NCBI GenBank assembly: GCA_041688295.1 | Contig: JBDNIM010000101.1 | Coordinates: 1-27,645, forward strand | DNA: 27,645 bases | Direction: 5' to 3' | From: Bacteroidia bacterium | GTDB lineage: Bacteria > Bacteroidota > Bacteroidia > NS11-12g > UBA955 | Shown here: piece by piece, positions 1,604 to 27,645 of the stretch | Position numbering within the stretch: the stretch's first letter is position 1 | How the letters are laid out: every line of letters begins with the position of its first letter | Notes under the pieces: generated by a model | What the model was told of the DNA's origin: nothing | Seen by the model: only the letters and a program-made list of their open reading frames with translations | Database searches by the model: none | Position numbers and translations under genes: made by a program

Positions 1604-2614
1604 TTAAAATTGTTTTAAAAATCTTAAATCATTTTCAAACATTTGTCTAATATCTTTAATCCCATATTTTAACATAGCTATTCTATCTACTCCCATTCCA
1701 AAAGCAAAACCTGAGTACTTTTCAGGGTCTATATTGCAATTAATCAAAACATTTGGATCTACCATACCGCAACCCAAAATTTCTAACCATCCTGTGCCTT
1801 TTGTTAATCTGTAATCTTGTTCTGTTTCCGTGCCTAAAAAAATATCCATTTCTGCACTCGGTTCGGTAAAAGGAAAATAGGAAGGTCGGAATCTGATTTC
1901 TCTTTCTCCAAAAAATTGTGATACAAAATAATATAGTGTTTGTTTTAAGTCAGCAAAACTTACCGATTCATTAATATAAAGTCCTTCAATTTGATGAAAA
2001 AAACAATTTGATCTTGAAGAAACAGCTTCATTTCTATAAACTCTGCCTGGCATTAAAGCTCGAATTGGCGGCTTTTCGCTCTCCATTAATCTTATTTGAA
2101 CACTGCTTGTATGCGTTCTTAATGCAAAATTACCAAATGGTTCTTTATTCACAAAAAAAGTATCTTGCATATCCCTCGCTGGGTGATTTTCAGGAAAATT
2201 TAAAGACGTAAAATTATGCCAATCATCTTCAATTTCTGGCCCATTTGCTATTGAAAAACCTATTTTTTCAAAAATTTCTATTATTTCATTCTTTACCACT
2301 GTAATGGGGTGCAAACTTCCCATTTCATAAGCGTTTGTAGGTAATGATTTATCATAAGTATTGACTTCACTTTTATTTGAAGCATATTTTTCTTTAAATT
2401 CCTCATATTTTTCCTCTGCTGTTTGCCTTAAAATATTTAATTCTTTTCCAATTTCTCTTTTTTCATCACCTTGGATAGTTTTAAACTTTTCAAACAATTC
2501 CCCAATAACACTTTTTTTTGCTAAAAAATTATTTCGGAACAATTCCACATCGCCAACTTTCTCGGCAACGGAATTTTTAATTGTTTCTTTCAAATGGTTA
2601 ATCTCATTTAACAT
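1604..2614 (-). CDS. pheS: Phenylalanine--tRNA ligase alpha subunit
   Basis: GSLHPIT, NFTSLNFPENHPARDMQDTF, LRTHTSSVQIR, GRVYRNE, FHQIEGL, FRPSYFPFTEPSAE, WLEILGCGMV, GFAFGMGVDRIAMLKYGIKDIR. Start set at MLNEI (2614), just downstream of a -7 element. Confidence 0.97.
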   Translation of the reverse strand: MLNEINHLKETIKNSVAEKVGDVELFRNNFLAKKSVIGELFEKFKTIQGDEKREIGKELNILRQTAEEKYEEFKEKYASNKSEVNTYDKSLPTNAYEMGSLHPITVVKNEIIEIFEKIGFSIANGPEIEDDWHNFTSLNFPENHPARDMQDTFFVNKEPFGNFALRTHTSSVQIRLMESEKPPIRALMPGRVYRNEAVSSRSNCFFHQIEGLYINESVSFADLKQTLYYFVSQFFGEREIRFRPSYFPFTEPSAEMDIFLGTETEQDYRLTKGTGWLEILGCGMVDPNVLINCNIDPEKYSGFAFGMGVDRIAMLKYGIKDIRQMFENDLRFLKQF

Positions 2615-9634: not shown

Positions 9635-10869
9635 TTCTTTGGTTGGTATTTAAGTACAGTATAGTTTTTAGTGGATAAATAGGTTTTACATACCCGCAAT
9701 ACATCAGCTTCGGTTATTTTTTGTATTTCGTCTATTTCAGTGTTTATTTTATTGGTGTCGCCTAACAAATGTGAATAGCAAAGTCCCATTGCTTTGTTTA
9801 AGACAGATGTTTTGCTAAACAAGTTGCCTGTTATAGCTTTATTTTTTACTTTTTCTAACTCGTTACTTTGCAATCCTTCCTTCATTATTTGAAAAAATAT
9901 TTCTAAAACCGATTGTTCCGCTTCATCAAATTCTATGTTTTCGTTTAGCTTGCCTTCCACAACCAATAGACCAGGGTCAATATCTCCAGAAATATAAGCA
10001 GAGACATGAGAAAATACGCCTTTTTGTTTTACCAAAACCTCAGTGAAACGAGAAGATTCTGTGCCAGAGAGCATATCCGTTAAAACATCCAATGCATAAT
10101 AATCTGTATGGTTTCTTGCCACTGTGTCAAAGGCCATAAATATTGCTCTTTGTGGAACATCAGCTTCTATCGTTAGTTCTTTTCTTATAAATTTTGGCGT
10201 TTCAAGCGTGTATTTATTGCTGTTAACCGGCCCAGCAGGAATATCACCAAACCATTTTATAACAAGCGTTTTAGCCGCCTCAAAGTCAATATATCCGGCC
10301 AAACTGATAATAGCGTTAGATGGGTTGTAAAATTTATCGAAAAAAGCTTCAACGTCCTGAAGTTTAGCATTCTCAATATGGCTAATTTCCTTGCCAATAG
10401 TGGCCCATTGGTAAGGGTGTTTTTCGTAAGCAAGAGGTCTTAATTTTAGCCATGCATCGCCATAGGGTTGGTTCAAATACCGTTGTTTAAACTCTTCGAT
10501 TACCACACCTTTTTGAACCTTCAAAGCCTTTTCATTAAAATCTAAACGCAACATTCTGTCGCTCTCCAACCACAGCGCTGTTTCAATGTTTTCTGCCGGC
10601 AGGGTGATGTAATAATTTGTAATGTCATTGCTAGTAAAAGCATTGTTTTCGCCACTCGCCATTTGCAAGGGTGTGTCGAAGGAAGGGATATTTACCGAGC
10701 CGCCAAACATCAAATGTTCAAACAAATGCGCAAAACCCGTTTGTTCAGGGTTTTCGTCTCTTGCTCCCACATTATATAGAATATTGCAAACGCAAAGCGT
10801 TGTGTTTTTATCCTCATTATGAATAAGCGTTAAACCATTGGGCAGCTTATAGGTGTTAAATGAAATCAC
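9631..10869 (-). CDS. M16 (pitrilysin/insulinase) family zinc peptidase, catalytic subunit
   Basis: YNVGARDE, GFAHLFEHLMFGGS (HXXEH), NAFTSNDITNYY, LWLESDRM, VVIEEFKQR; GTG start; 4-nt overlap with the partner gene. Confidence 0.93.
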   Translation of the reverse strand: MISFNTYKLPNGLTLIHNEDKNTTLCVCNILYNVGARDENPEQTGFAHLFEHLMFGGSVNIPSFDTPLQMASGENNAFTSNDITNYYITLPAENIETALWLESDRMLRLDFNEKALKVQKGVVIEEFKQRYLNQPYGDAWLKLRPLAYEKHPYQWATIGKEISHIENAKLQDVEAFFDKFYNPSNAIISLAGYIDFEAAKTLVIKWFGDIPAGPVNSNKYTLETPKFIRKELTIEADVPQRAIFMAFDTVARNHTDYYALDVLTDMLSGTESSRFTEVLVKQKGVFSHVSAYISGDIDPGLLVVEGKLNENIEFDEAEQSVLEIFFQIMKEGLQSNELEKVKNKAITGNLFSKTSVLNKAMGLCYSHLLGDTNKINTEIDEIQKITEADVLRVCKTYLSTKNYTVLKYQPKK

Positions 10870-11809: not shown

Positions 11810-11812
11810 TTT

Positions 11813-12176: not shown

Positions 12177-12184
12177 TATTTTTG
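12177..12184 (+). promoter_or_regulatory. -7 element for fabG-tatC-rpiB
   Basis: TATTTTTG, 23 nt before the ATG at 12208. Confidence 0.6.
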
Positions 12185-12207
12185 CCTAGAAAAGTAACCC
12201 CTAAAAT

Positions 12208-12951: not shown

Positions 12952-12955
12952 TATT

Positions 12956-13792: not shown

Positions 13793-13796
13793 AAAA

Positions 13797-14234
13797 ATGA
13801 AAACAATACATATTGGTTGCGACCATGCCGGTTTCGATTTGAAACAAGAATTGATTAAGTGGCTAGAAACAAATGGTTATAAAACACAAGATTATGGCAC
13901 ATTTTCTAAAGATTCTATGGATTATCCGGACACTGTGCACCCTTTGGCAACAGCTGTTGAAAAAGAAGAAAATGGCACAGGCATTTTAATTTGTGGCAGT
14001 GGAAATGGCGTTTGTTTAACAGCCAATAAGCACGAAGGCATTAGAGCAGCTTTGTGTTGGTTGCCCAATTTGGGGGCTTTAGCAAAACAACATAACAATG
14101 CCAATATCCTGTGTTTGCCTGCTCGTTTCGTGAGCCAAGAAACAGCTATACAAATTGTAGAAGCCTATTTGAATGCCGAATTTGAAGGTGGCAGACATCA
14201 AAGTAGAATTGACAAGATTTGCGGGTTTAATTAA
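13797..14234 (+). CDS. rpiB: Ribose-5-phosphate isomerase B
   Basis: IGCDHAGF, SMDYPD, GILICGSGNG, ANKHEGIRAAL, HNNANILCL, FEGGRHQSRIDKI. Confidence 0.95.
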   Translation: MKTIHIGCDHAGFDLKQELIKWLETNGYKTQDYGTFSKDSMDYPDTVHPLATAVEKEENGTGILICGSGNGVCLTANKHEGIRAALCWLPNLGALAKQHNNANILCLPARFVSQETAIQIVEAYLNAEFEGGRHQSRIDKICGFN

Positions 14235-14241
14235 ATTTTAT

Positions 14242-14249
14242 TACTTTTG
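14242..14249 (+). promoter_or_regulatory. -7 element for the C10 protease gene
   Basis: TACTTTTG, 21 nt before the ATG at 14271. Confidence 0.55.
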
Positions 14250-14270
14250 TAACAATTAAATGATATTGTT

Positions 14271-16901
14271 ATGAAAAAAAATCTACTATTTGTTTTAGCA
14301 TTAATTGCTTGTTTCAATCTATTTTCTAAATCTGTAAGCCAAGAAAAAGCGCAAGCTTTGGCAACGGGATTTTTTAAAAACTACTTTCCTTCGGTGTCCA
14401 AAGCCAATTGCTATTTAGCTTACCAATCGCAGAGCAATGCTTACAGCAACAGCAACAGCAGCACTCCCGAAAACTATTTTTATGTGTTTAATTATCAAAA
14501 CAAAGGCTTTGTTATCTTGAGTGCCGATGATGTTTTTACACCTATTATTGCTTATTCTTTAGAGAATGGGTTCACGGCCGACAACATGGCACAGCATGTA
14601 CAAAAATGGTTAGAGGGTTATAAAGAAGAAATTAGAGCAGGCATAAAAAATGGACTTGAAAGCACTATGGCCATCAATAATGAATGGAAAAACTTAGAAA
14701 ATGGCTTGCTTATTGGTGCTGAGAAAATTGGAAACACCAATCCTAAAAGGGGCAGCGTTTCGCCCTTGTTGACCACAAAATGGAACCAATCACCAAATTA
14801 TAATGCTTTGTGTCCTTATGACAATGGAGCAAGGCAACTAACTGTTAGCGGATGCGTTGCCACGGCCGTAACTCAAGTAATGAAATATTGGAACTATCCT
14901 GCAAAAGGAACGGGCAATTATTCTTACAATCATAGCAACTATGGCACGCTTTCTGCAAACTTTGCCGCAACAACTTACAATTGGTCTAACATGCCCAACA
15001 CGGTGAACAGCGGCAACTTTCAATCTGTCGCTCTGTTAACCTATCAAGTTGGGGTAAGTGTAGATATGAACTATGGAATTGCTTCCACGGGAGGCAGCGG
15101 TGCTTATGTTATTAGCAGCAAAAGCCCTGTAACCAATTGTGCTGAATATGCGCTCAAAACTTACTTCGGCTATAAAACCACTTTAAAAGGGGTGGAGAGA
15201 GCAAGCTACAATGCCACCAATTGGATAAATTTGCTGAAAGCAGAATTAGACGCTTCTCGTCCTATTATTTATGCCGGTTTTGGCTCGGGTGGTGGCCATT
15301 GTTTTGTTGCCGATGGCTACGACAACAATAATTTTTTCCATTTCAACTGGGGATGGGGTGGTAATTCCGATGGTTATTTCAGTATTAATGCCCTTAATCC
15401 CGGTTCTTTAGGTGCGGGCGGAGGCAGCGGAGGTTTTAATAGCGGACACCAAGCCATTATTGGTGTTGAGCCAAAGGAAGGTGGAACGAGCGCTTCTACT
15501 ATGGATATGCGTTTATATTCAGAAATCATATTGAATCAATCGCCTGTAAATTATAACACCAATTTCTCTGTGAACGTTAGTTTGGCTAATTTTGGTACAA
15601 CAAGTCAGCAAAATTTTCAAGGCGATTTTGCAGCTGCTATCTTTAATTCAAGCAATCAGTTTGTTTCTTTTGTTGAAACCAAAGCAATTAGTTTGCTAGA
15701 ATTTAATTTTTTTAATACCTACACATTTAGCACACAAGCATTGAGCAATTTGGTTCCGGGAACCTATAAAATGGGAATGTATTACAGAATAAAGAATACA
15801 ACAGATTGGAAAGCTTTTTCAAACAATGGTGGTTATTCCAACTTTCAATCTTTTGATGTAAAAGGATTGAATATAAATCCCCTAAAACTATATGCAGCCA
15901 TTTCAACAACGCCTTCTCCCATTGTGCAAAACAATAGTTTTGTGATTTCTTTTGACATAGCAAACTTTGATAATCGGGATTTTAATGGCGATGTGTCTGT
16001 CGATTTGCACAGTTCAGATGGAAAACACTTGGGAGAGTTAGGTATTAAAACAGGACTTTCTCTTCAAGCAGGCTATCATTTCACAAATGGCTTGCAATAC
16101 ACAATTAGCAGTGGCTTGGCAGATGAGCCAGGCAATTATCTGTTGTTTGTTTACTCTAAACCCTCAGGTGGAATATGGGATTATGTAGGAACCGGCAATT
16201 TTGCTAACCCTGTAAGCATTCTGGTGGTTGCGCCTAGCCTAAATCCAGATATTTATGAAAATAACAACACTGTTTCCACGGCCTATACCTTACCGGTTAG
16301 CTATGTTAACAACAAAGCGACAGTAAAAACAACAGGTTCTAATTGTCATATTGGCACCGACTACGATTTTTATAAAATTAACTTTCCCGTAGGTACAAAT
16401 TATGCTTTCTCTGCCAAACTTAACGATGCTTTAGTTTCTGACGATGGAAAAACATACACCCTAGATGCTGTGTTTTCTTATTCTTTAGACAATGGCGCTT
16501 CGTTTTCAGATGTGTTCGACACCCGAATAGGCGAAACTTTGATTTCAAAAGGGGGCAGCAATGTTATTTTTAAAGTGTCGCCCTATTTCACTGGCGGTAT
16601 TGGTACCTATTTGTTAGACATAAATATAGATTTTACCCAATCTGTGTCCGATCTGGCGTTTCAAAACCTAATAAAACTATATCCAAACCCAGCCAAAGAC
16701 TTTGTTACCGTTCAGTTTGATGCTATTAAGGTTAATTCCATTACCGTTATGGATGTTCAAGGCAGGATTATTGAAACCTACAAAAATCTAGACAAAGAAA
16801 ACTTGCTGCTGATAGAACAAAACAATCTGGGCGCGGGTATTTATTTCTTGAATATAGAAACAGACAAGGGCCTAGTTGTTAAAAAATTGGTGTTCAAATA
16901 A
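14271..16901 (+). CDS. C10 (streptopain/SpeB-family) cysteine protease with prodomain, Ig-like/PPC-like domains and T9SS type-A CTD
   Basis: Prodomain YFYVFN...GFVILSADD..PIIAYS; TTKWNQS, SGCVATAVTQVM (Cys), GGHCFVADGY (His), HFNWGWGG; DIYENNN...DYDFYK; C-terminal LYPNPAKD...GIYFL...VVKKLVFK. Confidence 0.93.
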   Translation: MKKNLLFVLALIACFNLFSKSVSQEKAQALATGFFKNYFPSVSKANCYLAYQSQSNAYSNSNSSTPENYFYVFNYQNKGFVILSADDVFTPIIAYSLENGFTADNMAQHVQKWLEGYKEEIRAGIKNGLESTMAINNEWKNLENGLLIGAEKIGNTNPKRGSVSPLLTTKWNQSPNYNALCPYDNGARQLTVSGCVATAVTQVMKYWNYPAKGTGNYSYNHSNYGTLSANFAATTYNWSNMPNTVNSGNFQSVALLTYQVGVSVDMNYGIASTGGSGAYVISSKSPVTNCAEYALKTYFGYKTTLKGVERASYNATNWINLLKAELDASRPIIYAGFGSGGGHCFVADGYDNNNFFHFNWGWGGNSDGYFSINALNPGSLGAGGGSGGFNSGHQAIIGVEPKEGGTSASTMDMRLYSEIILNQSPVNYNTNFSVNVSLANFGTTSQQNFQGDFAAAIFNSSNQFVSFVETKAISLLEFNFFNTYTFSTQALSNLVPGTYKMGMYYRIKNTTDWKAFSNNGGYSNFQSFDVKGLNINPLKLYAAISTTPSPIVQNNSFVISFDIANFDNRDFNGDVSVDLHSSDGKHLGELGIKTGLSLQAGYHFTNGLQYTISSGLADEPGNYLLFVYSKPSGGIWDYVGTGNFANPVSILVVAPSLNPDIYENNNTVSTAYTLPVSYVNNKATVKTTGSNCHIGTDYDFYKINFPVGTNYAFSAKLNDALVSDDGKTYTLDAVFSYSLDNGASFSDVFDTRIGETLISKGGSNVIFKVSPYFTGGIGTYLLDINIDFTQSVSDLAFQNLIKLYPNPAKDFVTVQFDAIKVNSITVMDVQGRIIETYKNLDKENLLLIEQNNLGAGIYFLNIETDKGLVVKKLVFK

Positions 16902-16902
16902 A

Positions 16903-17418
16903 ATGAAATATTGGTTTTTAATAAGTTTGCTTGTCTTTAGTGTTGCTTGCAAAAGCAAAAAGAAAGCGAAAGACAAAGAAATGGAAAATACGGTGTTTGT
17001 GCCAAACAATACCCCTGGCGCCAAAGCCATTGTTTATAAAACAATTAAAAACTACGACAAGTTTGTGGCTATTATTATGAGCCAAGATGGCAAAGAAATC
17101 ATAAGTTATCCCGATCCAAAGGATGTGGCCTCCAATGGCGATTTGATTGCGCTGCCGACAGTGTTAAAACAAGGCTATTTGCTAGACAACAGAGGAATTG
17201 GCCCGCAAGTGGCTTTCCTAAAAATCAGCTACAAAGACTTTGGCAAGCTAATGACACCACCTTCTTTAGAAGATATGCAAGCCATGATTTTAGAAAAAAG
17301 TCCTTTGCTAGAAATGTATGACTGCGGCAATCGAGACAGCATCAAAAACCTTACCCAAACCCTAAATTCTTTGATAGAAAAAAAACAATTGGACAAGGTT
17401 TGCAAAAAATTGTATTGA
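16903..17418 (+). CDS. Lipoprotein of unknown function, co-transcribed with the protease
   Basis: Start at MKYWFLISLLVFSVAC (lipobox), 1 nt after the protease stop; GYLLDNRGIG, PLLEMYDCG. Confidence 0.8.
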   Translation: MKYWFLISLLVFSVACKSKKKAKDKEMENTVFVPNNTPGAKAIVYKTIKNYDKFVAIIMSQDGKEIISYPDPKDVASNGDLIALPTVLKQGYLLDNRGIGPQVAFLKISYKDFGKLMTPPSLEDMQAMILEKSPLLEMYDCGNRDSIKNLTQTLNSLIEKKQLDKVCKKLY

Positions 17419-17437
17419 AAACGAACAAAGCCACCTA

Positions 17438-18571
17438 TTATTTTGATTCTGATAGATTCTGGAATAAATGTTTTTTAATCGAATCTTTTAATGCAGCAGA
17501 TAAAAATGTAGGCACAGCATTTCCTATTTGCAAGTTTTTATCGCCTCTTGAACCATAGAAAATATAATGGTCTGGAAAACATTGAATTCTAGCCCCTTCT
17601 CTTGTTGTCAGTGGCCTTGGTGCTATTGGATGGATACACCTCGATGATGAAGGGGTACTTAAATTTCTAGTAATTGTTGTACTAGGTCTGTTCCACCACA
17701 ATCTACAATAAGTATTTGCAAAACCACTTTTAGGTCTCATTTCTTCTGGCAAATCTTTTGGAGTTCCACCATCTGGAAGGTTTTCCATTATTTTGATTAA
17801 ACTACCATTATTGTTGGGGGAATTATGGTCCATTAATTTATTTGGAGCATTTTCTCTCATTAATTTCTGAAATTCATTAACAGGTTCAGTAGCATAAACA
17901 AAACATTCTTCGCTACTTTTGATAAAAGCAAGATCACCAATAGCTTCTCTTAATGTTAGATAAGGTTTTAATTCTTGATTTAAAAGATTAATGCCATCTT
18001 CAGGATTATATCTTGTTGGTTCAGGATACATATATTTAGCATCTAATTTTGTTCCTATAATTATTACTCTTTCTCTTATTTGAGGTGCCCCAAAATCTGC
18101 TGAATTTAAAACTTTATAATCAACCTTATAACCTAATGATTTAAACAACAAAATAATTGACTTTAATAATTCTCCTTGTTGCATAGAAATAAGACCTTTT
18201 ACATTTTCAAATAAAAACATTTTTGGATCTAATTCTTTGAGAACTCTAAAATATTCTTGAAATAGTTTTCCTTTTGGATCGTCAATTAACCTTTTTCCAA
18301 CAGTTGAATATGCTTGACAAGGAGGCCCTCCTATAATTAAATCTATGTCTCCTTTTTTAACACCAAAATCTTTTTTTAAATCTTCAAGTCCAAAATCTTT
18401 TATGTCTTTGCAATAAACTTTAACAGATGGATGATTTAACTCATAAGCTTTTGCCATATTAATCAAAATTTCATTAGCAGCTAAAATTTCAAAATTTTCA
18501 TCTTGAACAAACCCATAACTTAAACCGCCAACTCCTGCAAATAAATCAATAGTTTTGAATTTTTTAAGCAT
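17438..18571 (-). CDS. DNA (cytosine-5)-methyltransferase, Type II R-M
   Basis: IDLFAGVGG (I), GGPPCQ (IV), FENV (VI), QIRER (VIII), REGARIQCFP (IX), QIGNAVP (X). TRD RPKSGFANTY...WW..P..TITRNLSTPSSSRCIHP is recalled as matching H. pylori ACGT methyltransferases (not verified). Confidence 0.95.
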   Translation of the reverse strand: MLKKFKTIDLFAGVGGLSYGFVQDENFEILAANEILINMAKAYELNHPSVKVYCKDIKDFGLEDLKKDFGVKKGDIDLIIGGPPCQAYSTVGKRLIDDPKGKLFQEYFRVLKELDPKMFLFENVKGLISMQQGELLKSIILLFKSLGYKVDYKVLNSADFGAPQIRERVIIIGTKLDAKYMYPEPTRYNPEDGINLLNQELKPYLTLREAIGDLAFIKSSEECFVYATEPVNEFQKLMRENAPNKLMDHNSPNNNGSLIKIMENLPDGGTPKDLPEEMRPKSGFANTYCRLWWNRPSTTITRNLSTPSSSRCIHPIAPRPLTTREGARIQCFPDHYIFYGSRGDKNLQIGNAVPTFLSAALKDSIKKHLFQNLSESK

Positions 18572-18582
18572 AATCTTATATT

Positions 18583-19365
18583 TTAAATTTTAAATAATTT
18601 TTTATAGTTAGGTGGGAATTCCGTTAATTTCCAAACAAAATAATTTTGATCTATATTAAAAACAGTTTGCCCTTCCAATTGTTGTCTTGTTATCCAATTT
18701 AGACTGTCATCATCAATATTATCTATTTTTACAAAAGCAACCTGCCCATTGTATAAATCAAAATGAACAACTAATGAAGGAATCTTCTCTTCTCTTTTAA
18801 TTCTTTTTGCTTCTAAAACTTTGTGTTGTTTAATGTCATTTATTCCTTGAAATCCAGATTGAACTTCAATTCTAATCTTTTTGTCATTTTTTAATTTAAT
18901 TAGCAAATCTGCCTTTGGTGATTTTTTAAAAGTTTCAATATTTACTAAATCATCATCTCCAATTAAATCAATATTTTCAATATCAACATCAAAAACTTTG
19001 CTCAATGCACTTAAAAAATATGAAGACATTACAAATCCACGCATCCAAGAAAAATAAACTTCTTCAGGTCTTCTACCTAGATTATTTAGTCTCGAAATGA
19101 TGTTGTGTGTTTTTAATTTCTCAAATACTGTTTTTATATTTTCATCACAAAATATCCCTAAATCTTCAACTTTTATTTCATCCACGACCAAATCATTTAT
19201 TTTTGCTACTATTTCAAGTAGTCTGTAGTTTAATAATTCTATATAATTGTAATCAATTGTTGGAATTATATCTTTCGCACCCAAAAAAGCCTTAAGTTTA
19301 TTCTGATTAGTAAAGCCCAGTTGTTCTCTATATTCCTTGAAGTATTTTGTATCAATCATTGTCAT
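18583..19365 (-). CDS. Type II restriction endonuclease (recalled as HpyCH4IV-like)
   Basis: Directly upstream of the MTase (11-nt gap); PD-(D/E)xK-like KADL...IEVQSG...DIK; RLNNLGRRPEEVYFSWMRG. Start ATG 19365 or 19359 (track uses TTG 19380). Confidence 0.8.
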   Translation of the reverse strand: MTMIDTKYFKEYREQLGFTNQNKLKAFLGAKDIIPTIDYNYIELLNYRLLEIVAKINDLVVDEIKVEDLGIFCDENIKTVFEKLKTHNIISRLNNLGRRPEEVYFSWMRGFVMSSYFLSALSKVFDVDIENIDLIGDDDLVNIETFKKSPKADLLIKLKNDKKIRIEVQSGFQGINDIKQHKVLEAKRIKREEKIPSLVVHFDLYNGQVAFVKIDNIDDDSLNWITRQQLEGQTVFNIDQNYFVWKLTEFPPNYKKLFKI

Positions 19366-19422
19366 ATTTTTAGTTATCAAAAATCATTCGCTAACAGTAG
19401 TCTCATTTTTTAATTTCAACTA

Positions 19423-19430
19423 CAAAAGTA
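19423..19430 (-). promoter_or_regulatory. -7 element for the R-M operon
   Basis: TACTTTTG on the minus strand, about 60 nt upstream of the REase start. Confidence 0.55.
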
Positions 19431-19714
19431 ATATTTTTATCCATTTTTTAATCTTAATTTTATAAAATTTTGGACTATTTTGCAATTCTCTACTAAAGAT
19501 TATAAAGGTTTTATCTATACCCAATATTATTTATTTTATAATATGAACCAAATTTTTAATAGCTACTTGTTTCTGTTTTAATTGTGTATGAATTAATTTA
19601 AGGTTCTAATAATAATCTTTTGTGGTTTTGGTTTATGTTTAAAATAAAAAAAACAGCTTTAACTTCTTCAATATCAAGCAATGTCGCAGCAACGGATTTC
19701 TGTCCGCTAAATGC

Positions 19715-20956
19715 TTAGTCAATTTCCATCCTCCTTTTTGGTTTGTATTCCATCAACAAAAGAAAATACAACAACAATTGGCCAATGGGCAAAACATTTT
19801 GTTTCTCTAACCAATACATACCAGCACGACTAACAATTACCTCAGCAGAAAATGTGAGGCAAAACATAGCAAAAGAAAAACAAAACAGTTTAAATGCATT
19901 TGGTTTGTGGAGGTGATAATGATAAATTAGATAGAAAACGGCTGGCAAAGCATAAATGTAATTCGCTTTCCACACCAAGGGCGTCAAAAGGGGAATGGCG
20001 GTAATAATCACCAAAACAGAGAACTGATAGAAACGAGCCGTTGGTTTTAATATCTGCCTAAAAAACATTGAAAAATAGAACAAAGCCAAAAGCAAAGCAA
20101 AAGTATAGTAGGCGGCTTTTATGTAGCTGTCCTTGAGCGCAATAAGAGGTTTTTGATTGTTAACAAGGATGTTTTCTTCACTAAAAAGCCTGAAAAAGCC
20201 AGCCATAAGAGATTGGTTTCTGTGATGAATGCCATGCTTTGCCGTGGCAATGTGATCATACCAGTGACGGTGGAGTTGCAAGGTTTGTTCAATCCCAAAA
20301 ACCAAGACAACTGCAACAAAAACTACGAGCAAACCGATAAAAATACCCAGAAGAGATTTCCATTTCCGTAGCAAAATATACAAAGGGATTAAAAATATAT
20401 TGAAAACCTTGCTGCCAATACTAATCCCAATCCAAACATTGTTTTTTATGGTTTTATTTTCTCTTAAAGCCAACAAAGCAACCGCCAACATAGGCAAATT
20501 TATTTGCATATACATAATGTTGTCCATCATGGCACGGCAAACAAACAACAAAGACAACACAAACCAAGGTTTTTTAATATAATAGGAGAACAACGAACGG
20601 TAGGTAACTGGCTTTTGTTCCAAAAACTCGGTCATGGTTTTTATGCTGAATAACAAACACAGAAACAAAACAATCATCCATAAAAACCTAACCAAATGGA
20701 AGTTTATATTATTGATGATAGCAAAAGGTACCGACAAAATACTGAAAGCAGGCGGCCATGTATTAAACATAGAATCATAAATATTTTTCCCATCCAAAAG
20801 CAAATTCCCCGAATCCACATACCCCACAAAATCGCCATTGTTCTTAAAACAAAGCAAAGCATAGACTAGCATGACAGTCCAAAGCAAAAAGCCCAGCAGT
20901 TTGATATATTTAGAATTAAAAGTTATGGTGGGCAAAAATAAGGAATTGAGGAACAA
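19715..20956 (-). CDS. Polytopic membrane glycosyltransferase, GT87/DUF2029-like (GT-C fold)
   Basis: About ten TM segments; GDFVGY...GKNIY...NTWPPAF, QINL, GISIGSKVF, NQSL. Start uncertain: a -7 element at 20933-20940 lies inside the track ORF, so ATG 20872 is an alternative. Confidence 0.78.
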   Translation of the reverse strand: MFLNSLFLPTITFNSKYIKLLGFLLWTVMLVYALLCFKNNGDFVGYVDSGNLLLDGKNIYDSMFNTWPPAFSILSVPFAIINNINFHLVRFLWMIVLFLCLLFSIKTMTEFLEQKPVTYRSLFSYYIKKPWFVLSLLFVCRAMMDNIMYMQINLPMLAVALLALRENKTIKNNVWIGISIGSKVFNIFLIPLYILLRKWKSLLGIFIGLLVVFVAVVLVFGIEQTLQLHRHWYDHIATAKHGIHHRNQSLMAGFFRLFSEENILVNNQKPLIALKDSYIKAAYYTFALLLALFYFSMFFRQILKPTARFYQFSVLVIITAIPLLTPLVWKANYIYALPAVFYLIYHYHLHKPNAFKLFCFSFAMFCLTFSAEVIVSRAGMYWLEKQNVLPIGQLLLYFLLLMEYKPKRRMEID

Positions 20957-21037
20957 AAGTTAGATGGAAATTTGGTATAAAATGTGGTCAGATCATTTAA
21001 CATGTAAAATGCCTATAACCAAGAAGCAAAATATCCA

Positions 21038-24000
21038 TTACCAAACCACAACTTTTTCAGCGTATATCCTTTCGTCTATTTTTATTTTAAAAATGTAAAC
21101 ACCTTTGTTTAGTTTAATTTCCAATGATTTGGTAAACGGATTGCTTACTATAAGAATGTGTTGACCTAATATATCAAAAACTTCTAGGTTAAAAGCTTTA
21201 TCGCATTCAATATGAACTTCCCCATTGCTAGGATTTGGGTATATTTTCAACCTTGCCAAACTGTTGTTTTAAACCTTGGTGTTTATAAATGCATAATTTT
21301 CTGATTGCGAAAAACAGCCGAAGCTATTGGTAACTTTTGCAAAATAGGTGCCACTCGGGCAGTTTAAAATGCTGTCTTGGTCTGTAGCAAATAAAGTATC
21401 ATTAAAAAACCAATCCACCTTATCGTTGGTATTGATAAACAAGGTATTTCCTGACCGTTGCAGAATTGGTTTTTCTGGCTGTTGAACAACTTCAATGACT
21501 TTGGTTTCAGTTTTAAATACACAATATTTGTCGCTTATAGTGTTGAAATAAAAAGAATCTTGGTTTTTTATATTGCCAAAAACAAAGCGTTTAGCAAAAC
21601 TTTTGGAAACAATCAATTGATTGTTTTTATAAACCTCTTTTTCCCATTCGTTAGTCATCGTTATTTCAACCGAATCGTAATTACATATCTTGTTTTTTGC
21701 AGTAATTAATTCAGCCACAGGCAAAGGATGCACCCTCAAATATATAGAATCGGAAAAGCTAGAACAGCCGTAGTTATTAAATCCTTGAACAATTAGATGG
21801 CTGTTTTGAGTTAGTTTTATGTTAGAGAAAGTATCGGCAGTCGTTTCTATCATGTTTCCGTTTAAAAATATATTGTAAGTAGTGGAAAAATATTTGCCCA
21901 ATTGTATGGTTTCATTCTTGCAATAATCATCTTTTCTATCAATCACAAAAATGTAAACCTGCGGCAATGGATGAACATCTGGCTTAACAATCATTGTATC
22001 GGTGCATGAATTATTGGTATCTTGCATTACAATTTTTATTACATCTTGCGGTTTTAATGTATCAAAATAATTAATGTAAATTCCCTTTGAAAATTGTTCT
22101 TGGTTGTTCTTAAACAATTGATGAGGATTGTTAGAGTTAAATTGAAGTGCAAATAATTCTTTCTCACAAATGCCATTGTTTACTAAATTGCTGCTAATAC
22201 TTATTGGGCTTGACTTTTTAACCAAAAGTGCAACAATTCCGATGCTGTCTATGCTTACACTATATGGATTGGTGGTGCGTGTTCTTAATAAATAATTGCC
22301 AACTCTGTTCAACCTTGGAACCTTGAACTGAAGACTGTCCTTCGTTTTGTTAGTGTTTTTATATCCTAAAACCATTGGATTGCCAAATAAACCTTGGCTA
22401 TCACTTAGTTCAATAAATGTTTGGTTGTTCGCAGCCAGCAAAATTCTAGGCTCAAATACAATCAAATTGCTGTCGTTCAAACAAGTGCTTGTGTTTTTTA
22501 TTCTCAAAATCTTAACCGGACTAATAATATTCCCTTTTGCAATATTGGTTGCCACTTTATTAGTAAATTCAAAATCTATGGTTGCTTGGTTTTTAAAGCT
22601 TGTTTCTTTTTCAATATCAGAGTTTAAACCCAATGTAAAGTTTAAAAAGACATTATTTTCATTGATGTCCTTTTCATATTTAAGTAAATTTATTTTTTCA
22701 AATTCAAAATAAATAACATTGCCAACAAAAACAGGTTTGCATTTTTTGTTGTTAAAGTTTAAATTGAACATTGATAAATTAAAATGTTTTAAATCAATGG
22801 TATCCGAAATAATAACATTGTTCAAAGTGTCTATACCCGAATTCACAAAGCTGATACTAAAATCTATTGTTTTATCGATAGTGGTTTTGCTGCTATCATT
22901 TATAATTTGCTTGAAGTTTGCGCCTTCGGCTTTGTTTACTACTTTGATTAATATGGCTTTATTATTATTTCTATCGGAATCGTTATTGATAGTTGTTTGG
23001 TCGGTTTTGGCTTGAAAAAAAATTGAATGACCTGCACTAAAATTTGCTTGTGATTTTATTTCATCAATTTTAAAACTAAAGTTTTTTTCTGAAAAAGGTG
23101 CAACACTGTCAATAACGATGTTGTTTTCTGCTCCTGTTAGTTTTTTCCAATTGTTTGTGCCATTTATATTGTTAATGCCTAGGCTCAATGCTATCGGAAT
23201 AGCTTTACGAGTTTTGTTGCCATTGTTTTTAATATTCAAAAAAATAGATACACTTTCACCTTTTATTATTTCTCCTGCATGTAAGTTTACCTCAATATCG
23301 CTGTAATTATTGTTTTTTTCTATTGCAAAATCTAATCCAAAATAGGCGCTATCTGCCAAAGTGCTAATGTTGATGATGTTATTGGAAGGGCATGAAACAT
23401 CAAAAGCACTACTGTTTATTAAACAACTTAATTGGTGATTGCCAGCTTTCGCTGCTATATAATACAAACCGTCTGCACCAGAAATGCCAATATTATTGCC
23501 AAGGCTGTCTTTTATTTTATATCCCATTAAAGGAATGTCGGCATTGTCAAACACACAGTTTTTGTTTTTATCTTCATAAACTCGTCCGTAAATGCCAGAT
23601 TTATAAACAAATCCGATTTCCAAAGAAACTGAATCTCTGAAACTTAACGAAAAAGTTGTGTCTTTCGTAGTTTGATTTAAATAATAATTGTAATCGGGAC
23701 TCAGCGTGTAACTGCCTTTTTCTAGCATTTGTGTTAATTTCCCGTTTGTTGCCGTTTGGTAAATTTTGCCTTTTCTGTTTTGGTAAATTAGTTTAACCTT
23801 AGACTGAATGAAAGGTTCGCCATTGTTTCTAATACCATCATTGTTCTGGTCTAAAAAACTTGAGTATTTTAGTTTGCCAACAGAATCGGGTGGCAGAAAT
23901 CTAATAAAAAAACTTTTAGAATTGTAGGCATTAATAGGGCAAAAATTATCCCTGGTATTAAAAATTGCTAATTGGTAATCCTTGTTTTTTATAGAATCAT

Positions 24001-25177
24001 AAAAACCATCTGTCATTTTAAAGCAATAAACCCCAATTTTTTGTTTAGCAGACGAATCTTTTAAGAAAAAAGTAGCACCAGGCAAAGGATTAATTAAAGT
24101 CAATTGGGTTTCTTCACCATTGTTAGCAGAATCTTTATGGTTGCCAATGGCATCTTTGGCGTTTATTTCATAACATTTTTTCTCGCCCACTTTAAACTCA
24201 AAATGATTGGAATTAATGTTCGGTTTTGCATTTTTAACAAAGCCTGAAAAGCCGGAAACTGTTAAAATAAACTCTCGTGAACTATAACCAAGCCATATCT
24301 TTTTCCCAAGCGAATCTGTTCTATATTCATCAGCTCTGAAATTAAGAATGGGTCTCTCTAAATATTTCATTGGTGTAACAAAGATTGTACCGGTTTTATA
24401 ATCAAAATAAAAACCCCTTGGCGGATTTGCCGATGGAATAGGCCTACAATTCGTAACCGCAGGATTTGGTGGACAATAGGGTGTAATCGGAATTGAGGGA
24501 TTGCCATAAGTAAAAGGGGAATATATATTAAAACCAACTTTTGGGGTTGCCATTTTATAATCAATAGAATCAAAATCTACATAATCGTTCCCTGCAAAAC
24601 TATAGCCAAACGGATTGGTTTGCAATAATTCGAATTGTCTAAAAATTGGATACTCAACCGATGAATTGGTATATTTTGATTTACACAAATTAATCATTGC
24701 CTCAATATAAAAAGGTGTGTTGTATGGGCCTGTTAAAATTCCGCCTAGTTTTCTAATACCAATGTATGAACCAAAATTAACAACACAACTCCGACTTACA
24801 AAGCTGTCATATTTTTGGTCGTTGAAATCTATTTTGGCAATAAAAGTATGTAATTCTAACCCAGTTGTATTTGAGTTGTTGGTGTTTTGAGATTTGCAAA
24901 TATTGCTTCCTGTATCCAAACAATTAATAGAAATATCCTGAATACTTACCCTTGTTGTTGGCAGTCTCATGGTGTCTGGCGTTTCATTAATCAAAAAAAT
25001 TGGAATATTTTTCAAAGCCAAACCATTGCATTCGCGATAGACCTTTAATGTTATTTCATATTTTTTGTTGCCTGTTTGTTTATAGGAAATTTCTCCGCCA
25101 ATGACATCGGCTTTCATCTGATTTGTTAATAAAAACAGCAGAAGAATGGTTAATGTTTTAAATGGAAATTTTGCCAT
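21038..25177 (-). pseudogene. Large modular T9SS type-A cargo protein interrupted by an in-frame TAA (21269-21271) before its CTD
   Basis: Signal peptide from ATG 25177; ADVIGGEISY N-domain, SdrD-B-like repeats (FLDQNNDGIRNNGE; GRVYEDKNKNCVFD), DUF11-like SFVNSG..NVIISDTI, Ig-like repeats; then TKV*NNSLARLKIYPNP...GVYIFK...EKVVVW in one frame. Confidence 0.8.
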
Positions 25178-25593
25178 AGAATCTTTAAGACACAAAAATG
25201 AAGCGTTTCGTTGCCTTAATATTATTTTTTGAATGGCAGAAAATTGGGAAATTAGTGAACGACTGCTATTCGATTGGTTTGATTGCTTTTGTGGCAAATA
25301 GCATATTTTTTTAAAAATTAATTGTATGTTTTTTACCGTTGCAAAATGGGAGCCCATTTGGCTTAAATAAAGTTATTTAATGGCATTTCTTCAATGCGGT
25401 AATTCTATTGATTGTTTATAGGCAATGGCGATAAATATATATTCAAAAATATTAGGTTTTTTTAAGTAGAATAGCTGTTAAATAAAACTTCGGCACTATC
25501 TTGGCTTTTATTATTAAGACAATATGAAACTTTAATAAGTTATTTAAAGAGATTGTGAAAACACTTTTTTAAAAGACTAAGAAATAAATATTC

Positions 25594-25601
25594 TACCTTT
25601 G
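25594..25601 (+). promoter_or_regulatory. -7 element for the DUF488 operon
   Basis: TACCTTTG, 4 nt before the ATG at 25606. Confidence 0.55.
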
Positions 25602-25605
25602 TGAA

Positions 25606-26490
25606 ATGTTTTATAGAAGAAAAATAATATTGGCATTATTACAGATTTTTGATGGAAATATTGATAAAATAAGCTTGCAGAAACTACTGTTTTTATTCTC
25701 CAAACGACAAAGTAAAGCTGAATATGATTTTATTCCATACCGTTTTGGTTGCTATTCTTATTCTGCAAACGCTGACTTAACTGCTATGGTTAATAAAGAA
25801 TTATTGACAGAAACAAAAAGTCATTTTATTAGTATTGAAAAAATCGATTACTTTAAAGTTTTAAAAGAAAATGACAAAAAAATTATGATAGAAATTAAAG
25901 CTCTTTATGGAAAAATGAATGCAGATGCTTTAATGAAGCACACCTATCTAAATTTTCCTTATTGGGCAATCAATAGCGTTAAGGCAAGCGAAATATTAAC
26001 AGTAGATCAATTTGAGAAAGTCAATAACAGTAGACCCAAAACCAATGAAATTAGTTTGTTTACTATTGGATATGAAGGTATTTCTTTGGAAGAGTATTTA
26101 AATAGATTGCTTAAAAATGATGTGAAAATATTAGTTGATGTTAGAAATAATGCTTTAAGTATGAAATATGGTTTTAGCAAAAGTCTATTGCAACGATTCT
26201 GTAATAGCTTGGGAATTGAATATTTGCATTTCCACGAAGTAGGCATACAATCTGACCAAAGACAAGAATTAAATAATCAAAATGATTACGATAAATTATT
26301 TTCTATTTATTGTGAAACTAATCTAAAAAAAACAACTGATTCTCAGTTGAAAATTTTAGATTTATTGCAAAAACACAAACGAATAGCTTTAACTTGCTTT
26401 GAATCTAATATTTGTCAATGCCATAGAAAACATTTGGCCGAAGCAATTGAAAATTTGCCAAACTTTAAATATCAAGTAAAACATATTTAA
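25606..26490 (+). CDS. DUF488 family protein with an N-terminal SocA-like winged-helix domain
   Basis: aa 151-294: LFTIGYEG, LVDVR, SMKYGFSK, GIEYLH, ALTCFE...CHR. aa 1-125: LQKLLF...YDFIPYRFGCYS...YLNFPYW. Confidence 0.85.
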   Translation: MFYRRKIILALLQIFDGNIDKISLQKLLFLFSKRQSKAEYDFIPYRFGCYSYSANADLTAMVNKELLTETKSHFISIEKIDYFKVLKENDKKIMIEIKALYGKMNADALMKHTYLNFPYWAINSVKASEILTVDQFEKVNNSRPKTNEISLFTIGYEGISLEEYLNRLLKNDVKILVDVRNNALSMKYGFSKSLLQRFCNSLGIEYLHFHEVGIQSDQRQELNNQNDYDKLFSIYCETNLKKTTDSQLKILDLLQKHKRIALTCFESNICQCHRKHLAEAIENLPNFKYQVKHI

Positions 26491-26492
26491 AT

Positions 26493-27317
26493 ATGGCAAA
26501 GACAAAAGTATTGATTACTGTAAAAACTTACCCTGCCATTTCCGGGAAATATGACGAATTGGTATGTACCGCTGGTTTTTTGGAGGATGGAACATGGATT
26601 CGAATTTACCCTATTCAATTTCGAAAAAAATCTTTTGAAGAGCAATATAAAAAATATGATTGGATTGAAATCGACCTTGTAAAAAACAAAAGAGATTTTA
26701 GAAAAGAAAGTTTTAGACCAGTTTCATACGATACTGAAATTAAAATTTTAGACCATTTAGATACAAAAAGTAATTGGTTGCTGCGAAAAGAAATTGTGTT
26801 CAAAAACGAAATCTATAATGATATTCAAAAACTAGTTTTAGAAGCAAAGAACAGAGAAATCATGACTTCTCTTGCGGTATTCAAACCAACCGAAATAAGC
26901 AATTTTACGATTGAACAAGTAGAAAGAGAATGGAACAAAAAGAGGCTTGAAAAGCTAAAACATGATAGAAGTAGTAATTTATTTGCACAAGAAGAAGAGG
27001 ACTTGTTTGAAGTGATTAGAAAACTTCCTTATAAATTTTCTTATGTTCTACGAGACTGTAATGGAAAACAAAGTAAAATGATGATTGAAGATTGGGAAAT
27101 AGGTCAGCTTTATTGGAACTGTCTTGCTAAACACGAAGGAAACGAAGTAAAAGCAGTTGAAGATGTTAGGAAAAAATATTTTGATGACTTCGCAAAAACA
27201 AAAGACTTACATTTGTTTTTAGGAACATCGCAACTCCACCATTTAACGGGCAAAAATCCATTTATGATTATTGGAACTTTTCATCCGAAAAAAGAAAATC
27301 AACAAACTTTGTTTTAA
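26493..27317 (+). CDS. Uncharacterised DUF488-partner protein, putative OB-fold nucleic-acid-binding
   Basis: 2 nt after the DUF488 stop; VLITVKTYP...LVCTAG...WIRIYP...KKYDWI...RKESFRP; PYKFSY...MIEDWEIG...HLFLGT; ends QQTLF. Fold is inferred from recalled family resemblance. Confidence 0.75.
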   Translation: MAKTKVLITVKTYPAISGKYDELVCTAGFLEDGTWIRIYPIQFRKKSFEEQYKKYDWIEIDLVKNKRDFRKESFRPVSYDTEIKILDHLDTKSNWLLRKEIVFKNEIYNDIQKLVLEAKNREIMTSLAVFKPTEISNFTIEQVEREWNKKRLEKLKHDRSSNLFAQEEEDLFEVIRKLPYKFSYVLRDCNGKQSKMMIEDWEIGQLYWNCLAKHEGNEVKAVEDVRKKYFDDFAKTKDLHLFLGTSQLHHLTGKNPFMIIGTFHPKKENQQTLF

Positions 27318-27514
27318 TAAAAGAGTTAATATAGAGCTAGACTAAATTAATAAAACTATTCAAACACTCTTTTTTACCATTCATATTTTTCAAGAAATGC
27401 CTCACATTATTGTAAAAGATATAACGCACAATAAAAACATTGTTTCTGAAAACCACATAAAATTAAAACCGTTAAATTATCAGATTGATAATAGAAAATT
27501 AATATTAAAATCTT

Positions 27515-27522
27515 TATCTTTG
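27515..27522 (+). promoter_or_regulatory. -7 element for the last gene
   Basis: TATCTTTG, 21 nt before the ATG at 27544. Confidence 0.55.
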
Positions 27523-27543
27523 CAATAAAAAATTGAAATAAAC

Positions 27544-27645
27544 ATGAAACAAATAATTATTATATTATGTGTTATCTCATTGTTATCCTCTTGTAGAAAA
27601 GAATGGTGGAACCCAAAAAAGGTAGCAGAACCAACATTACCTGGC
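27544..27645 (+). CDS. Lipoprotein (5' part, runs off the window)
   Basis: Manual translation MKQIIIILCVISLLSSCRKEWWNPKKVAEPTLPG; LSSC lipobox. Confidence 0.7.
   Translation, partial: MKQIIIILCVISLLSSCRKEWWNPKKVAEPTLPG

What the first reader, a model, noticed from the sequence alone, without database searches (positions are those of the whole stretch)
17438..19365. Probable ACGT-specific R-M system in a window almost devoid of ACGT
Seen: by eye I found ACGT only three times in 27.6 kb (2206, 10352, 15574) versus about 50 ACGA on the + strand; a manual count may miss a few. The depletion covers core genes and islets alike. Recalled, unverified: the MTase TRD and the REase resemble H. pylori HpyCH4IV/Hpy99XI (ACGT). 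Inference: long-term ACGT restriction or methylation pressure on this lineage, although the cassette itself looks like an AT-rich insertion, so such systems may have been gained repeatedly.
Basis: partly seen in the sequence, partly recalled or inferred. Interest (0 to 1): 0.62.

Follow-up and report, generated by a model that had tools for sequence, protein, structure and literature searches.

The report
ACGT restriction-modification system, ACGT-purged genome
This Bacteroidota genome carries a horizontally acquired two-gene restriction-modification system of the known MaeII/HpyCH4IV (ACGT) kind and has lost about 93% of its expected ACGT sites; this is a clear but ordinary case of a phenomenon already well described in Helicobacter pylori.

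Summary
The window has 3 ACGT sites against 41 expected. The whole 2.49-Mb genome has 165 against 2350 expected (O/E 0.07), the lowest of all 256 tetranucleotides.

On the minus strand, 17438-19365 encodes a 260-aa endonuclease and, 11 nt downstream, a 377-aa C5-cytosine methyltransferase.
- The methyltransferase is 80% identical, without gaps, to the only m5C methyltransferase of Methanococcus aeolicus PL15/Hp, the source strain of MaeII (A^CGT).
- The same R-then-M pair occurs in at least 134 species across many phyla.
- In 68 host loci of at least 6 kb, ACGT is the single most depleted tetranucleotide in 50 (pooled O/E 0.12).
- Thirty-two congeners lack the system; the 13 sampled over at least 7 kb have ACGT O/E 0.56-1.11.

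Caveats: selection by restriction and m5C deamination could not be separated. Four of 18 Campylobacterales without this system are also ACGT-purged. AT-richness is a property of this cassette in nearly every host, so it is not evidence of recent arrival.

The scan has met look-alike cassettes in 13 other windows, one already called MaeII-type.

Verdict: a new member of a known kind, of modest interest.

The parts
18583..19365 (-). Restriction endonuclease gene (260 aa from the ATG at 19365; alternative starts are ATG 19359 and TTG 19380). It is a candidate ACGT-specific type IIP enzyme with a probable PD-(D/E)XK-like core in residues ~110-265.
   Evidence: ORF. 1153 homologs at 67-84% identity across phyla, some named 'restriction endonuclease'. 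No Pfam or NCBIfam hit. AF2 model pLDDT 77.8. Best fold matches are the DpnI catalytic domain (Z 7.0) and Hjc (6.6, 5.8, 5.5), then PspGI, BsaWI and SfiI. E106, D158, E172, Q174, K184 and K187 are invariant down to 50% identity.
17438..18571 (-). C5-cytosine DNA methyltransferase gene (377 aa), M.MaeII-type; inferred product is A(m5C)GT.
   Evidence: PF00145 3.4e-73, TIGR00675 4.7e-65. 80% identity over 369 aa with no gaps to UXM84573.1/WP_262289764.1 of Methanococcus aeolicus; 79% over the TRD, residues 185-300. The TRD core is also conserved in the Helicobacter homolog.
18572..18582 (-). 11-nt spacer between the REase stop (TAA) and the MTase start (ATG). The two genes form one R-then-M unit.
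   Evidence: The same arrangement, with a gap of 5-66 bp, is seen in 74 of 80 host loci.
19366..19714 (-). Upstream intergenic region holding the only promoter-like site in the right orientation (first hexamer at 19485, second ends at 19457). No controller (C) protein ORF is present.
   Evidence: This is a weak consensus match, fewer sites than in shuffles, and the sigma-70 consensus is a poor model for Bacteroidota, so it is only a candidate.
2206..2209 (.). Residual ACGT site 1 of 3 in the window.
10352..10355 (.). Residual ACGT site 2 of 3 in the window.
15574..15577 (.). Residual ACGT site 3 of 3 in the window, inside the C10 peptidase gene.
19381..27645 (.). Context: a block (GT87 glycosyltransferase, a 1362-aa DUF7619 protein, DUF488 and others) that, like the cassette, is not syntenic with the nearest congeners. 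It is also free of ACGT (0 observed vs 8.0 expected).

Best explanation
This is a type IIP restriction-modification system of the MaeII / HpyCH4IV (Hpy99XI) kind, with target ACGT. The 377-aa enzyme methylates C5 of the cytosine in ACGT on both strands. The 260-aa endonuclease, probably a dimeric PD-(D/E)XK-type enzyme with an E..D-X13-E-X-Q site, cuts unmethylated ACGT in incoming DNA.

The cassette reached this Bacteroidota lineage by cross-phylum transfer. While this cassette, or earlier ACGT systems, was present, the genome lost about 93% of its expected ACGT sites. Two known forces act in that direction: selection against self-restriction whenever methylation lags, and the high C-to-T mutability of m5C.

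Shown here: the gene pair, its homologies, the conserved operon, and ACGT avoidance in this genome and in most other hosts but not in congeners.

Inferred: enzymatic activity, the cleavage position, and which of the two forces dominated.
For: Depletion in this genome:
- Window: 3 vs 40.8 expected.
- Genome: O/E 0.07, lowest of 256 words.
- No flanking-base bias among the 153 residual sites outside C331, so the avoided word is plain ACGT and not a longer word.

The methyltransferase:
- It has the full PF00145 match.
- It is 80% identical, without gaps, to the M. aeolicus m5C MTase on the 1,677,738-bp chromosome.
- PMC10113651 states that strain PL15/Hp makes MaeII (A^CGT), that ACGT is its only m5C motif, and that M.MaeII was assigned by REBASE homology.

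The operon across hosts:
- The R-then-M operon is conserved in 74 of 80 host loci.
- In 68 loci of at least 6 kb from many phyla, ACGT is the most depleted of 256 words in 50 and in the top three in 60; pooled, 152 observed vs 1223 expected.

Contrasts:
- The REase was not found in 40 relatives (24 of the same genus), and the DNA search found no cassette in any of 32 congeners.
- 13 congeners sampled over at least 7 kb have O/E 0.56-1.11, median 0.88.
- 0 of 167 ACGT sites in congeners' orthologous genes are kept in G000, against 10-18% for ACGA, ACGC and ACGG.

Helicobacter:
- Five VacA-positive Helicobacter genomes carry an adjacent homologous pair and have ACGT O/E 0.00-0.11.
- In H. pylori, ACGT is the target of the m5C MTase M.Hpy99XI and of HpyCH4IV, with O/E 0.05-0.11 (10.1101/2023.06.29.547018; PMC3849833).

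Nuclease fold and invariant acidic residues.
Against: - There is no direct biochemical or methylome evidence for this protein pair.
- M.MaeII itself was assigned bioinformatically in the cited paper.
- I could not test whether R.MaeII is homologous to this REase.
- The fold matches are middling (Z 7.0 at best), Foldseek found nothing below E 0.001, and there is no Pfam hit.
- Some carriers are not depleted: L024 O/E 0.98, L082 0.66, and L049, L051 and L058 about 0.5.
- Four of 18 Campylobacterales without this REase are strongly ACGT-depleted and have no MTase match to P0001 at E <= 1e-40. The cassette is therefore neither sufficient nor necessary for depletion.
Confidence: 0.85

Rival explanations
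1. Same system and same target, but the purge is mainly mutational. m5C at ACGT deaminates to T, giving ATGT/ACAT, faster than repair removes the mismatch, so methylation rather than restriction emptied the genome. The endonuclease would be irrelevant to the depletion.
For: ATGT/ACAT is the commonest replacement of congeners' ACGT sites in G000, at 48 of 167 sites (29%). In H. pylori, ancestral reconstruction found ACGT loss heavily skewed to ATGT/ACAT and named deamination a main driver (10.1101/2023.06.29.547018). Helicobacter genomes whose REase copy has an internal stop remain at O/E 0.02-0.11.
Against: The CpG-transition share at ACGT (0.29) is no higher than at control words ACGA 0.32, TCGA 0.32 and ACGG 0.26, so there is no ACGT-specific excess. 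At 68% nucleotide identity the comparison is saturated. Synonymous Arg-codon swaps (ACGT to AAGA/TCTT, 24 of 167) also occur. By general knowledge, orphan m5C MTases such as Dcm do not produce a depletion this deep. The two forces are not exclusive.
Confidence: 0.35
2. The ACGT purge is older than, or independent of, the present cassette. Earlier ACGT systems (possibly with unrelated nucleases) or another pressure emptied the genome. The present cassette is a later arrival that was cheap to accept because few sites were left.
For: The cassette was acquired horizontally: it sits in a clade with Gammaproteobacteria, Patescibacteria and Caenarcaniphilales copies, support 97. It lies at a synteny break. 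Four of 18 Campylobacterales lacking this REase, and lacking any MTase match to P0001 at E <= 1e-40, have ACGT as their most depleted word.
Against: None of the 13 sampled congeners is depleted, so any earlier system must also have been specific to this one lineage. No second MaeII-type MTase or REase exists in the assembly. G000's copy sits on a fairly long terminal branch of its own (0.19 substitutions per site against 0.02-0.13 for its neighbours), which argues against very recent arrival.
Confidence: 0.2
3. The methyltransferase is active but the endonuclease is dead or silent, so the system now behaves as an orphan methylase.
For: No terminator or convincing promoter was found. REase copies are pseudogenised in most of the Helicobacter genomes examined.
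Against: The G000 REase reading frame is intact and keeps every residue that is invariant across 27 homologs, and across the set reaching 50% divergence.
Confidence: 0.1
4. The cassette recognises some other site, and its co-occurrence with ACGT depletion is a coincidence.
For: No direct assay was done. The genome also avoids GATC (0.27), CGCG (0.33), CCGG (0.51) and GGCC (0.53), and holds three further m5C MTase genes.
Against: ACGT ranks first of 256 words in 50 of 68 independent hosts, while the next most depleted words vary from host to host. TRD identity to M.MaeII is 79%. The other m5C MTases share only the catalytic domain with P0001.
Confidence: 0.04

Closest known systems
MaeII restriction-modification system of Methanococcus aeolicus PL15/Hp (A^CGT; M.MaeII, m5C)
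   Same: The MTase is 80% identical over 369 aa without gaps, 79% in the TRD. Both are m5C enzymes. The inferred target ACGT is the same.
   Different: The host is a bacterium (Bacteroidota), not an archaeon. Whether R.MaeII belongs to this REase family is untested: no M. aeolicus protein is among the best 120 REase homologs, and the locus could not be fetched.
HpyCH4IV / Hpy99XI system of Helicobacter pylori (ACGT, m5C)
   Same: A homologous adjacent pair exists in five VacA-positive Helicobacter genomes (M 45-49%, R 50-52% identity), with a conserved TRD core and conserved candidate catalytic residues. The genomic consequence is the same: H. pylori ACGT O/E is 0.05-0.11 at 53-295 sites/Mb, against 66 sites/Mb here.
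   Different: Gene order is M then R in Helicobacter and R then M here. The pairs are only about 50% identical. The Helicobacter REase copy carries an internal stop in most genomes seen. That those Helicobacter genes are the ones named Hpy99XI/HpyCH4IV is an inference, since REBASE was not available.
Restriction-site (palindrome) avoidance in prokaryotic genomes, and m5C-driven motif decay
   Same: The recognition word of a resident type II system is strongly under-represented across the host genome. Here it is lineage-specific and genome-wide.
   Different: Nothing in kind. The depth (O/E 0.07) and the sharp contrast with congeners are at the strong end.

Membership tests
C5-cytosine DNA methyltransferase (Pfam PF00145 / TIGR00675) | Full-length match to the family model, including the catalytic motifs (FxGxG AdoMet site, PCQ catalytic Cys, ENV) | tested here: met
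   PF00145 3.4e-73 over model positions 1-324 of 324; TIGR00675 4.7e-65. FAGVGG, PPCQ and ENV are visible in the translation.
M.MaeII-type (ACGT) methyltransferase | Target recognition domain shared with an enzyme of known ACGT specificity | tested here: met
   79% identity over TRD residues 185-300 and 80% overall to the M. aeolicus m5C MTase. That enzyme was assigned as M.MaeII in PMC10113651, by homology in that paper.
M.MaeII-type (ACGT) methyltransferase | Demonstrated methylation of ACGT | not testable with these tools
   Needs expression plus bisulfite, EM-seq or nanopore sequencing, or an HpyCH4IV protection assay.
Type IIP restriction-modification system | Separate REase and MTase genes, adjacent and inherited together | tested here: met
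   11-nt spacer here. The same R-then-M pair is found in 74 of 80 host loci.
Type IIP restriction-modification system | Short palindromic target, cut within the site | tested here: inconclusive
   The target is inferred indirectly from avoidance: ACGT ranks first of 256 words in 50 of 68 hosts, with no flank bias at residual sites. The cleavage position was not tested.
PD-(D/E)XK nuclease superfamily (for the REase) | Alpha/beta core fold with acidic residues on the second and third strands | tested here: inconclusive
   Best matches are all PD-(D/E)XK nucleases (DpnI Z 7.0, Hjc 6.6, PspGI, BsaWI, SfiI), but Z is below 8 and Foldseek found nothing below E 0.001. D158 lies on strand 158-162 and E172/Q174 on strand 168-175; all are invariant. 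There is no Pfam hit. Residue-level superposition was not available.
R.MaeII endonuclease family | Sequence homology to the MaeII endonuclease of M. aeolicus | not testable with these tools
No M. aeolicus protein is among the best 120 homologs.
HpyCH4IV / Hpy99XI system | Homology of both proteins to the H. pylori ACGT system | tested here: inconclusive
   Homologs of both proteins are adjacent in five VacA-positive Helicobacter genomes that are ACGT-poor. That these genes are the ones named Hpy99XI/HpyCH4IV could not be checked without REBASE.

The most novel reading that the evidence does not exclude
ACGT purging may be a self-reinforcing state that is partly independent of any one system. 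Once a lineage has lost its ACGT sites, ACGT-specific systems with unrelated nucleases can be gained and lost at almost no cost, so such lineages collect them repeatedly. On this reading, the ACGT-purged Campylobacterales that lack any MaeII-type gene (4 of 18 sampled) either mark former carriers or point to a further, still unidentified driver of ACGT loss.
Probability: 0.2. Interest if true: 0.5.

Novelty: new member of a known kind. Interest (0 to 1): 0.3.

Why it matters
The finding gives a well-supported target prediction (ACGT) for a large, unnamed endonuclease family with no Pfam model. That family is spread over at least 134 species in many phyla. The method, asking which word all hosts of an operon avoid, can be reused for other uncharacterised R-M families.

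The sharp contrast between this genome (O/E 0.07) and its congeners (median 0.88) is a natural experiment. With closer relatives, it could be used to time a site purge and to separate restriction-driven selection from m5C deamination.

On the practical side:
- HpyCH4IV or MaeII would hardly cut this organism's DNA.
- DNA introduced into it would need ACGT methylation or ACGT-free design.
- ACGT density can flag mis-binned contigs in this MAG.

None of this changes current understanding of R-M biology.

Tried and rejected
- Substitution spectrum as a test of deamination against selection. CpG transitions at ACGT (0.29) are no more frequent than at control NCGN words (0.13-0.32), and the nearest relatives are only 68-76% identical, so the test is uninformative.
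- Clean empty-site test for the insertion. The conserved block fabG-tatC-rpiB-C10 peptidase-orf180 ends at the cassette. The genes that follow orf180 in congeners lie on another G000 contig (C286), and the far side of the cassette is non-syntenic, so no precise insertion boundaries can be drawn.
- No tRNA in the window. No terminator-like site, and promoter-like sites no more frequent than in shuffles.
- Sequence search of the PDB with the REase gave only chance-level hits. Foldseek against the PDB gave nothing below E 0.001.
- tblastn of the REase against 72,556 plasmids gave no match.
- A literature search for Moraxella catarrhalis plus ACGT R-M gave nothing relevant. The supplements of the M. 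aeolicus paper hold no MaeII gene data.
- A first attempt to centre genome search on a locus id failed. It was solved by first obtaining G handles.
- A longer target containing ACGT (AACGTT, CACGTG, GACGTC, TACGTA) is rejected. All contexts are depleted, and residual sites mirror the background flanking composition.
- A second ACGT system in this assembly is rejected. There is only one REase match, and the three other m5C MTases share only the catalytic domain with P0001.
- The ESM Atlas lookup returned only clusters automatically named 'restriction endonuclease', plus a sub-threshold (0.88) PDDEXK_14 lead.
Full report
**Observation**

The count is exact. ACGT occurs at 2206, 10352 and 15574 and nowhere else in the 27,645-bp window. 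Dinucleotide-preserving shuffles give 40.8 +/- 5.4, and every one of 100 shuffles had more than three.

The window is contig C293 of a 2.49-Mb, 521-contig assembly with 33% G+C. Genome-wide there are 165 ACGT sites (66 per Mb) against 2350 expected under a second-order Markov model. That is O/E 0.07, the lowest of all 256 tetranucleotides; GATC (0.27) and CGCG (0.33) come next. 412 of the 521 contigs have no ACGT at all.

Within the window, the depletion holds in each part:
- 3 observed vs 16.6 expected in the syntenic core part (1-17437);
- 0 vs 8.0 in the non-syntenic block 19381-27645;
- 0 vs 3.8 in the pooled AT-rich islets.

The 153 residual sites outside contig C331 have the same flanking-base make-up as ACG[not T]. 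The avoided word is therefore plain ACGT and not a longer site.

**What is at 17438-19365**

Two genes lie on the minus strand, separated by 11 nt.

The upstream gene encodes a 260-aa protein (18583-19365; alternative starts at 19359 and 19380).
- It has no Pfam or NCBIfam match.
- It has 1153 homologs, the best 120 at 67-84% identity, in very different phyla. Several are named 'restriction endonuclease' by their sources.
- An AlphaFold2 model (pLDDT 77.8) finds nothing significant with Foldseek.
- A Foldseek-independent search gives a list dominated by PD-(D/E)XK nucleases: the DpnI catalytic domain (Z 7.0), three Hjc resolvases (6.6, 5.8, 5.5), PA endonucleases, PspGI, BsaWI and SfiI. These Z values are middling, so I treat the fold as probable, not shown.
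- E106, D158, E172, Q174, K184 and K187 are invariant, even in copies only 50% identical. D158 and E172-x-Q174 sit on consecutive predicted strands, the usual position of the PD...(D/E)XK residues.

The downstream gene (17438-18571) is a complete C5-cytosine methyltransferase (PF00145 3.4e-73).

**Organism and setting**

The neighbours include a C10 peptidase with a type IX secretion sorting domain. This places the host in Bacteroidota, not Helicobacter.

The block fabG-tatC-rpiB-C10 peptidase-orf180 is conserved in the four nearest congeners where it lies on one contig. In a fifth it is split over two contigs. These congeners are themselves only about 76% identical in DNA. Synteny ends exactly at orf180. 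In the congeners, a 264-aa gene and a 219-aa gene follow, and their G000 orthologs lie on another contig, C286. The cassette therefore sits at a synteny break, but no clean empty site can be drawn.

**Which target?**

Three independent lines point to ACGT.

1. Homology.
   - The MTase is 80% identical over 369 residues without a gap, and 79% over the TRD, to UXM84573.1/WP_262289764.1. That protein is a Methanococcus aeolicus m5C MTase on a 1,677,738-bp contig.
   - Fomenkov et al. (PMC10113651) report a 1.68-Mb closed chromosome for M. aeolicus PL15/Hp, the commercial source of MaeII (A^CGT).
   - They state that the strain's only m5C motif is ACGT, and that M.MaeII was assigned by homology to REBASE enzymes of known specificity.
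2. Comparative avoidance.
   - A scan of one genome per species found the REase in 134 species.
   - In 74 of the 80 loci kept, it is followed within 5-66 bp by an ortholog of this MTase at 61-85% identity.
   - In the 68 loci of at least 6 kb, ACGT is the single most depleted of 256 tetranucleotides in 50 and among the top three in 60. Pooled, there are 152 sites against 1223 expected (O/E 0.12). The second and third most avoided words differ from host to host.
   - The REase was not found in 40 relatives, 24 of them in the same genus, and a DNA search of 32 congeners found no cassette.
   - Thirteen congeners sampled over at least 7 kb have ACGT O/E 0.56-1.11, median 0.88.
   - In 156 kb of aligned orthologous coding DNA, none of 167 ACGT sites of the congeners is kept in G000. 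By contrast, 10-18% of ACGA, ACGC and ACGG sites are kept.

**The Helicobacter recollection**

Among 401 Campylobacterales genomes, 25 have a match to the REase. A group of about 1.6-Mb genomes matches at roughly 52%. Five of them that I checked encode full-length VacA, which none of the 14 control genomes does, so they belong to the H. pylori group.
- In each, the best match to the MTase (45-49% identity, TRD core conserved) lies directly beside the REase homolog, but in the order M then R.
- In most of these Helicobacter-sized genomes, including three of the five VacA-checked ones, the REase copy has an internal stop.
- Their ACGT O/E is 0.00-0.11, rank 1 or 2 of 256.

The literature says that in H. 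pylori ACGT is methylated by the m5C enzyme M.Hpy99XI. It is among the most under-represented and unstable motifs there (53-295 per Mb), and it is lost mainly to ATGT/ACAT (10.1101/2023.06.29.547018). HpyCH4IV sites have O/E 0.05-0.11 (PMC3849833).

That these Helicobacter genes are the ones carrying those names is an inference I could not verify without REBASE.

**History in this lineage**

A tree of the concatenated R+M proteins places G000's copy in a clade (support 97) with copies from Gammaproteobacteria, Patescibacteria, Saccharibacteria and Caenarcaniphilales. It stands apart from the seven other Bacteroidota copies, so it came by cross-phylum transfer. Its own terminal branch is fairly long, at 0.19.

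The cassette is AT-richer than its flanks in 59 of 63 hosts (mean 32.0% against 37.3%). Here the figures are 28.6% against 32.4%. AT-richness is thus a family trait and not evidence of recent arrival.

**Limits and rivals**

I could not separate selection against self-restriction from m5C deamination. ATGT/ACAT is the commonest replacement (29%), but CpG transitions are equally common at control words, and the comparison is saturated.

The cassette is neither sufficient nor necessary for depletion.
- A few carriers are not depleted; for example L024 has O/E 0.98.
- Four of 18 Campylobacterales in which the REase was not found have ACGT as their most depleted word, yet no MTase match to P0001 at E <= 1e-40.

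Carriers as a whole (n = 67, median 0.05) still differ strongly from the pooled non-carriers (Mann-Whitney p = 3e-9). That test overstates the case, because relatives are not independent.

Whether R.MaeII itself belongs to this REase family is open.

**Comparison and verdict**

This works like, and by the MTase criterion belongs with, the MaeII / HpyCH4IV group of ACGT systems. The genomic consequence is the one already documented for H. pylori.

Earlier notes of this scan found look-alike cassettes in 13 other windows, one already called MaeII-type. I used that as a lead and tested the MTase link myself.

It is a new member of a known kind.

Noticed in passing
G000 contig C331 (L123:1-13856): This is the only contig that escapes the purge: 12 ACGT against 13.7 expected (Poisson p 3e-10 against the genome rate). 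It carries ordinary chromosomal genes (aconitase, a two-component pair, an ECF sigma factor, fatty-acid hydroxylases, Omp85) plus an IS transposase. It has the most atypical tetranucleotide make-up of the 47 contigs of at least 10 kb. It is probably either mis-binned or recently acquired, which suggests ACGT density could serve as a purity marker for this bin.
   Followed up: partly
Campylobacterales genomes G053, G057, G060, G071 (L128, L132, L135, L145): ACGT is the most depleted tetranucleotide (O/E 0.01-0.04), although neither this REase nor an MTase match to P0001 at E <= 1e-40 was found in these genomes. Possible reasons are another ACGT system, past carriage or an incomplete assembly. 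G073 (L147) is similar, at O/E 0.07 and rank 4.
   Followed up: partly
H. pylori-group genomes, e.g. L113:9638-11417, L116:8833-10612, L117:9378-11160: The homologous pair has the opposite gene order (M then R). The REase copy has an internal stop codon, mostly a single TAA, in most of the Helicobacter-sized genomes. It is intact in G285 and G438.
   Followed up: partly
L024 (Sulfurospirillum sp. MAG): This host carries an intact-looking R-M pair but shows no ACGT depletion in the 11 kb available (6 observed vs 6.1 expected). It is a candidate for a very recent acquisition. L082, L049, L051 and L058 are intermediate (O/E 0.5-0.7).
   Followed up: no
L016, L035, L067 (between REase and MTase): In these three hosts about 670-715 bp is inserted between the two genes, which are otherwise 5-66 bp apart. 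The content of the insertion was not examined.
   Followed up: no
L082:10001-11835, L083:8883-10753 and L080: In L082 and L083 the REase homolog is paired with a much more divergent m5C MTase (43-44% identity), in a different arrangement (opposite strand in L082, upstream in L083). In L080 only a partial MTase match (53%, 845 bp upstream) was seen. This may reflect partner exchange.
   Followed up: no
G000 contigs C364 (L124:109-1596), C486, C129: There are three further m5C methyltransferase genes, one of them fused to an N-terminal HTH domain (495 aa). The genome also strongly avoids GATC (0.27), CGCG (0.33), CCGG (0.51), GGCC (0.53) and GTAC (0.59), which suggests several more restriction systems, past or present.
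   Followed up: partly
window 12026-12386 vs G000 contig C401 (3006-3290 and 4138-4299): The region just upstream of fabG and its first codons recur on contig C401 at 92% and 85% identity. This is a short repeated segment of unknown nature.
   Followed up: no
window 14271-16901 and 21269-25357: There is a C10-family cysteine peptidase with an N-terminal Spi inhibitor-like propeptide and a T9SS sorting tail. There is also a 1362-aa protein whose only recognisable part is DUF7619.
   Followed up: no
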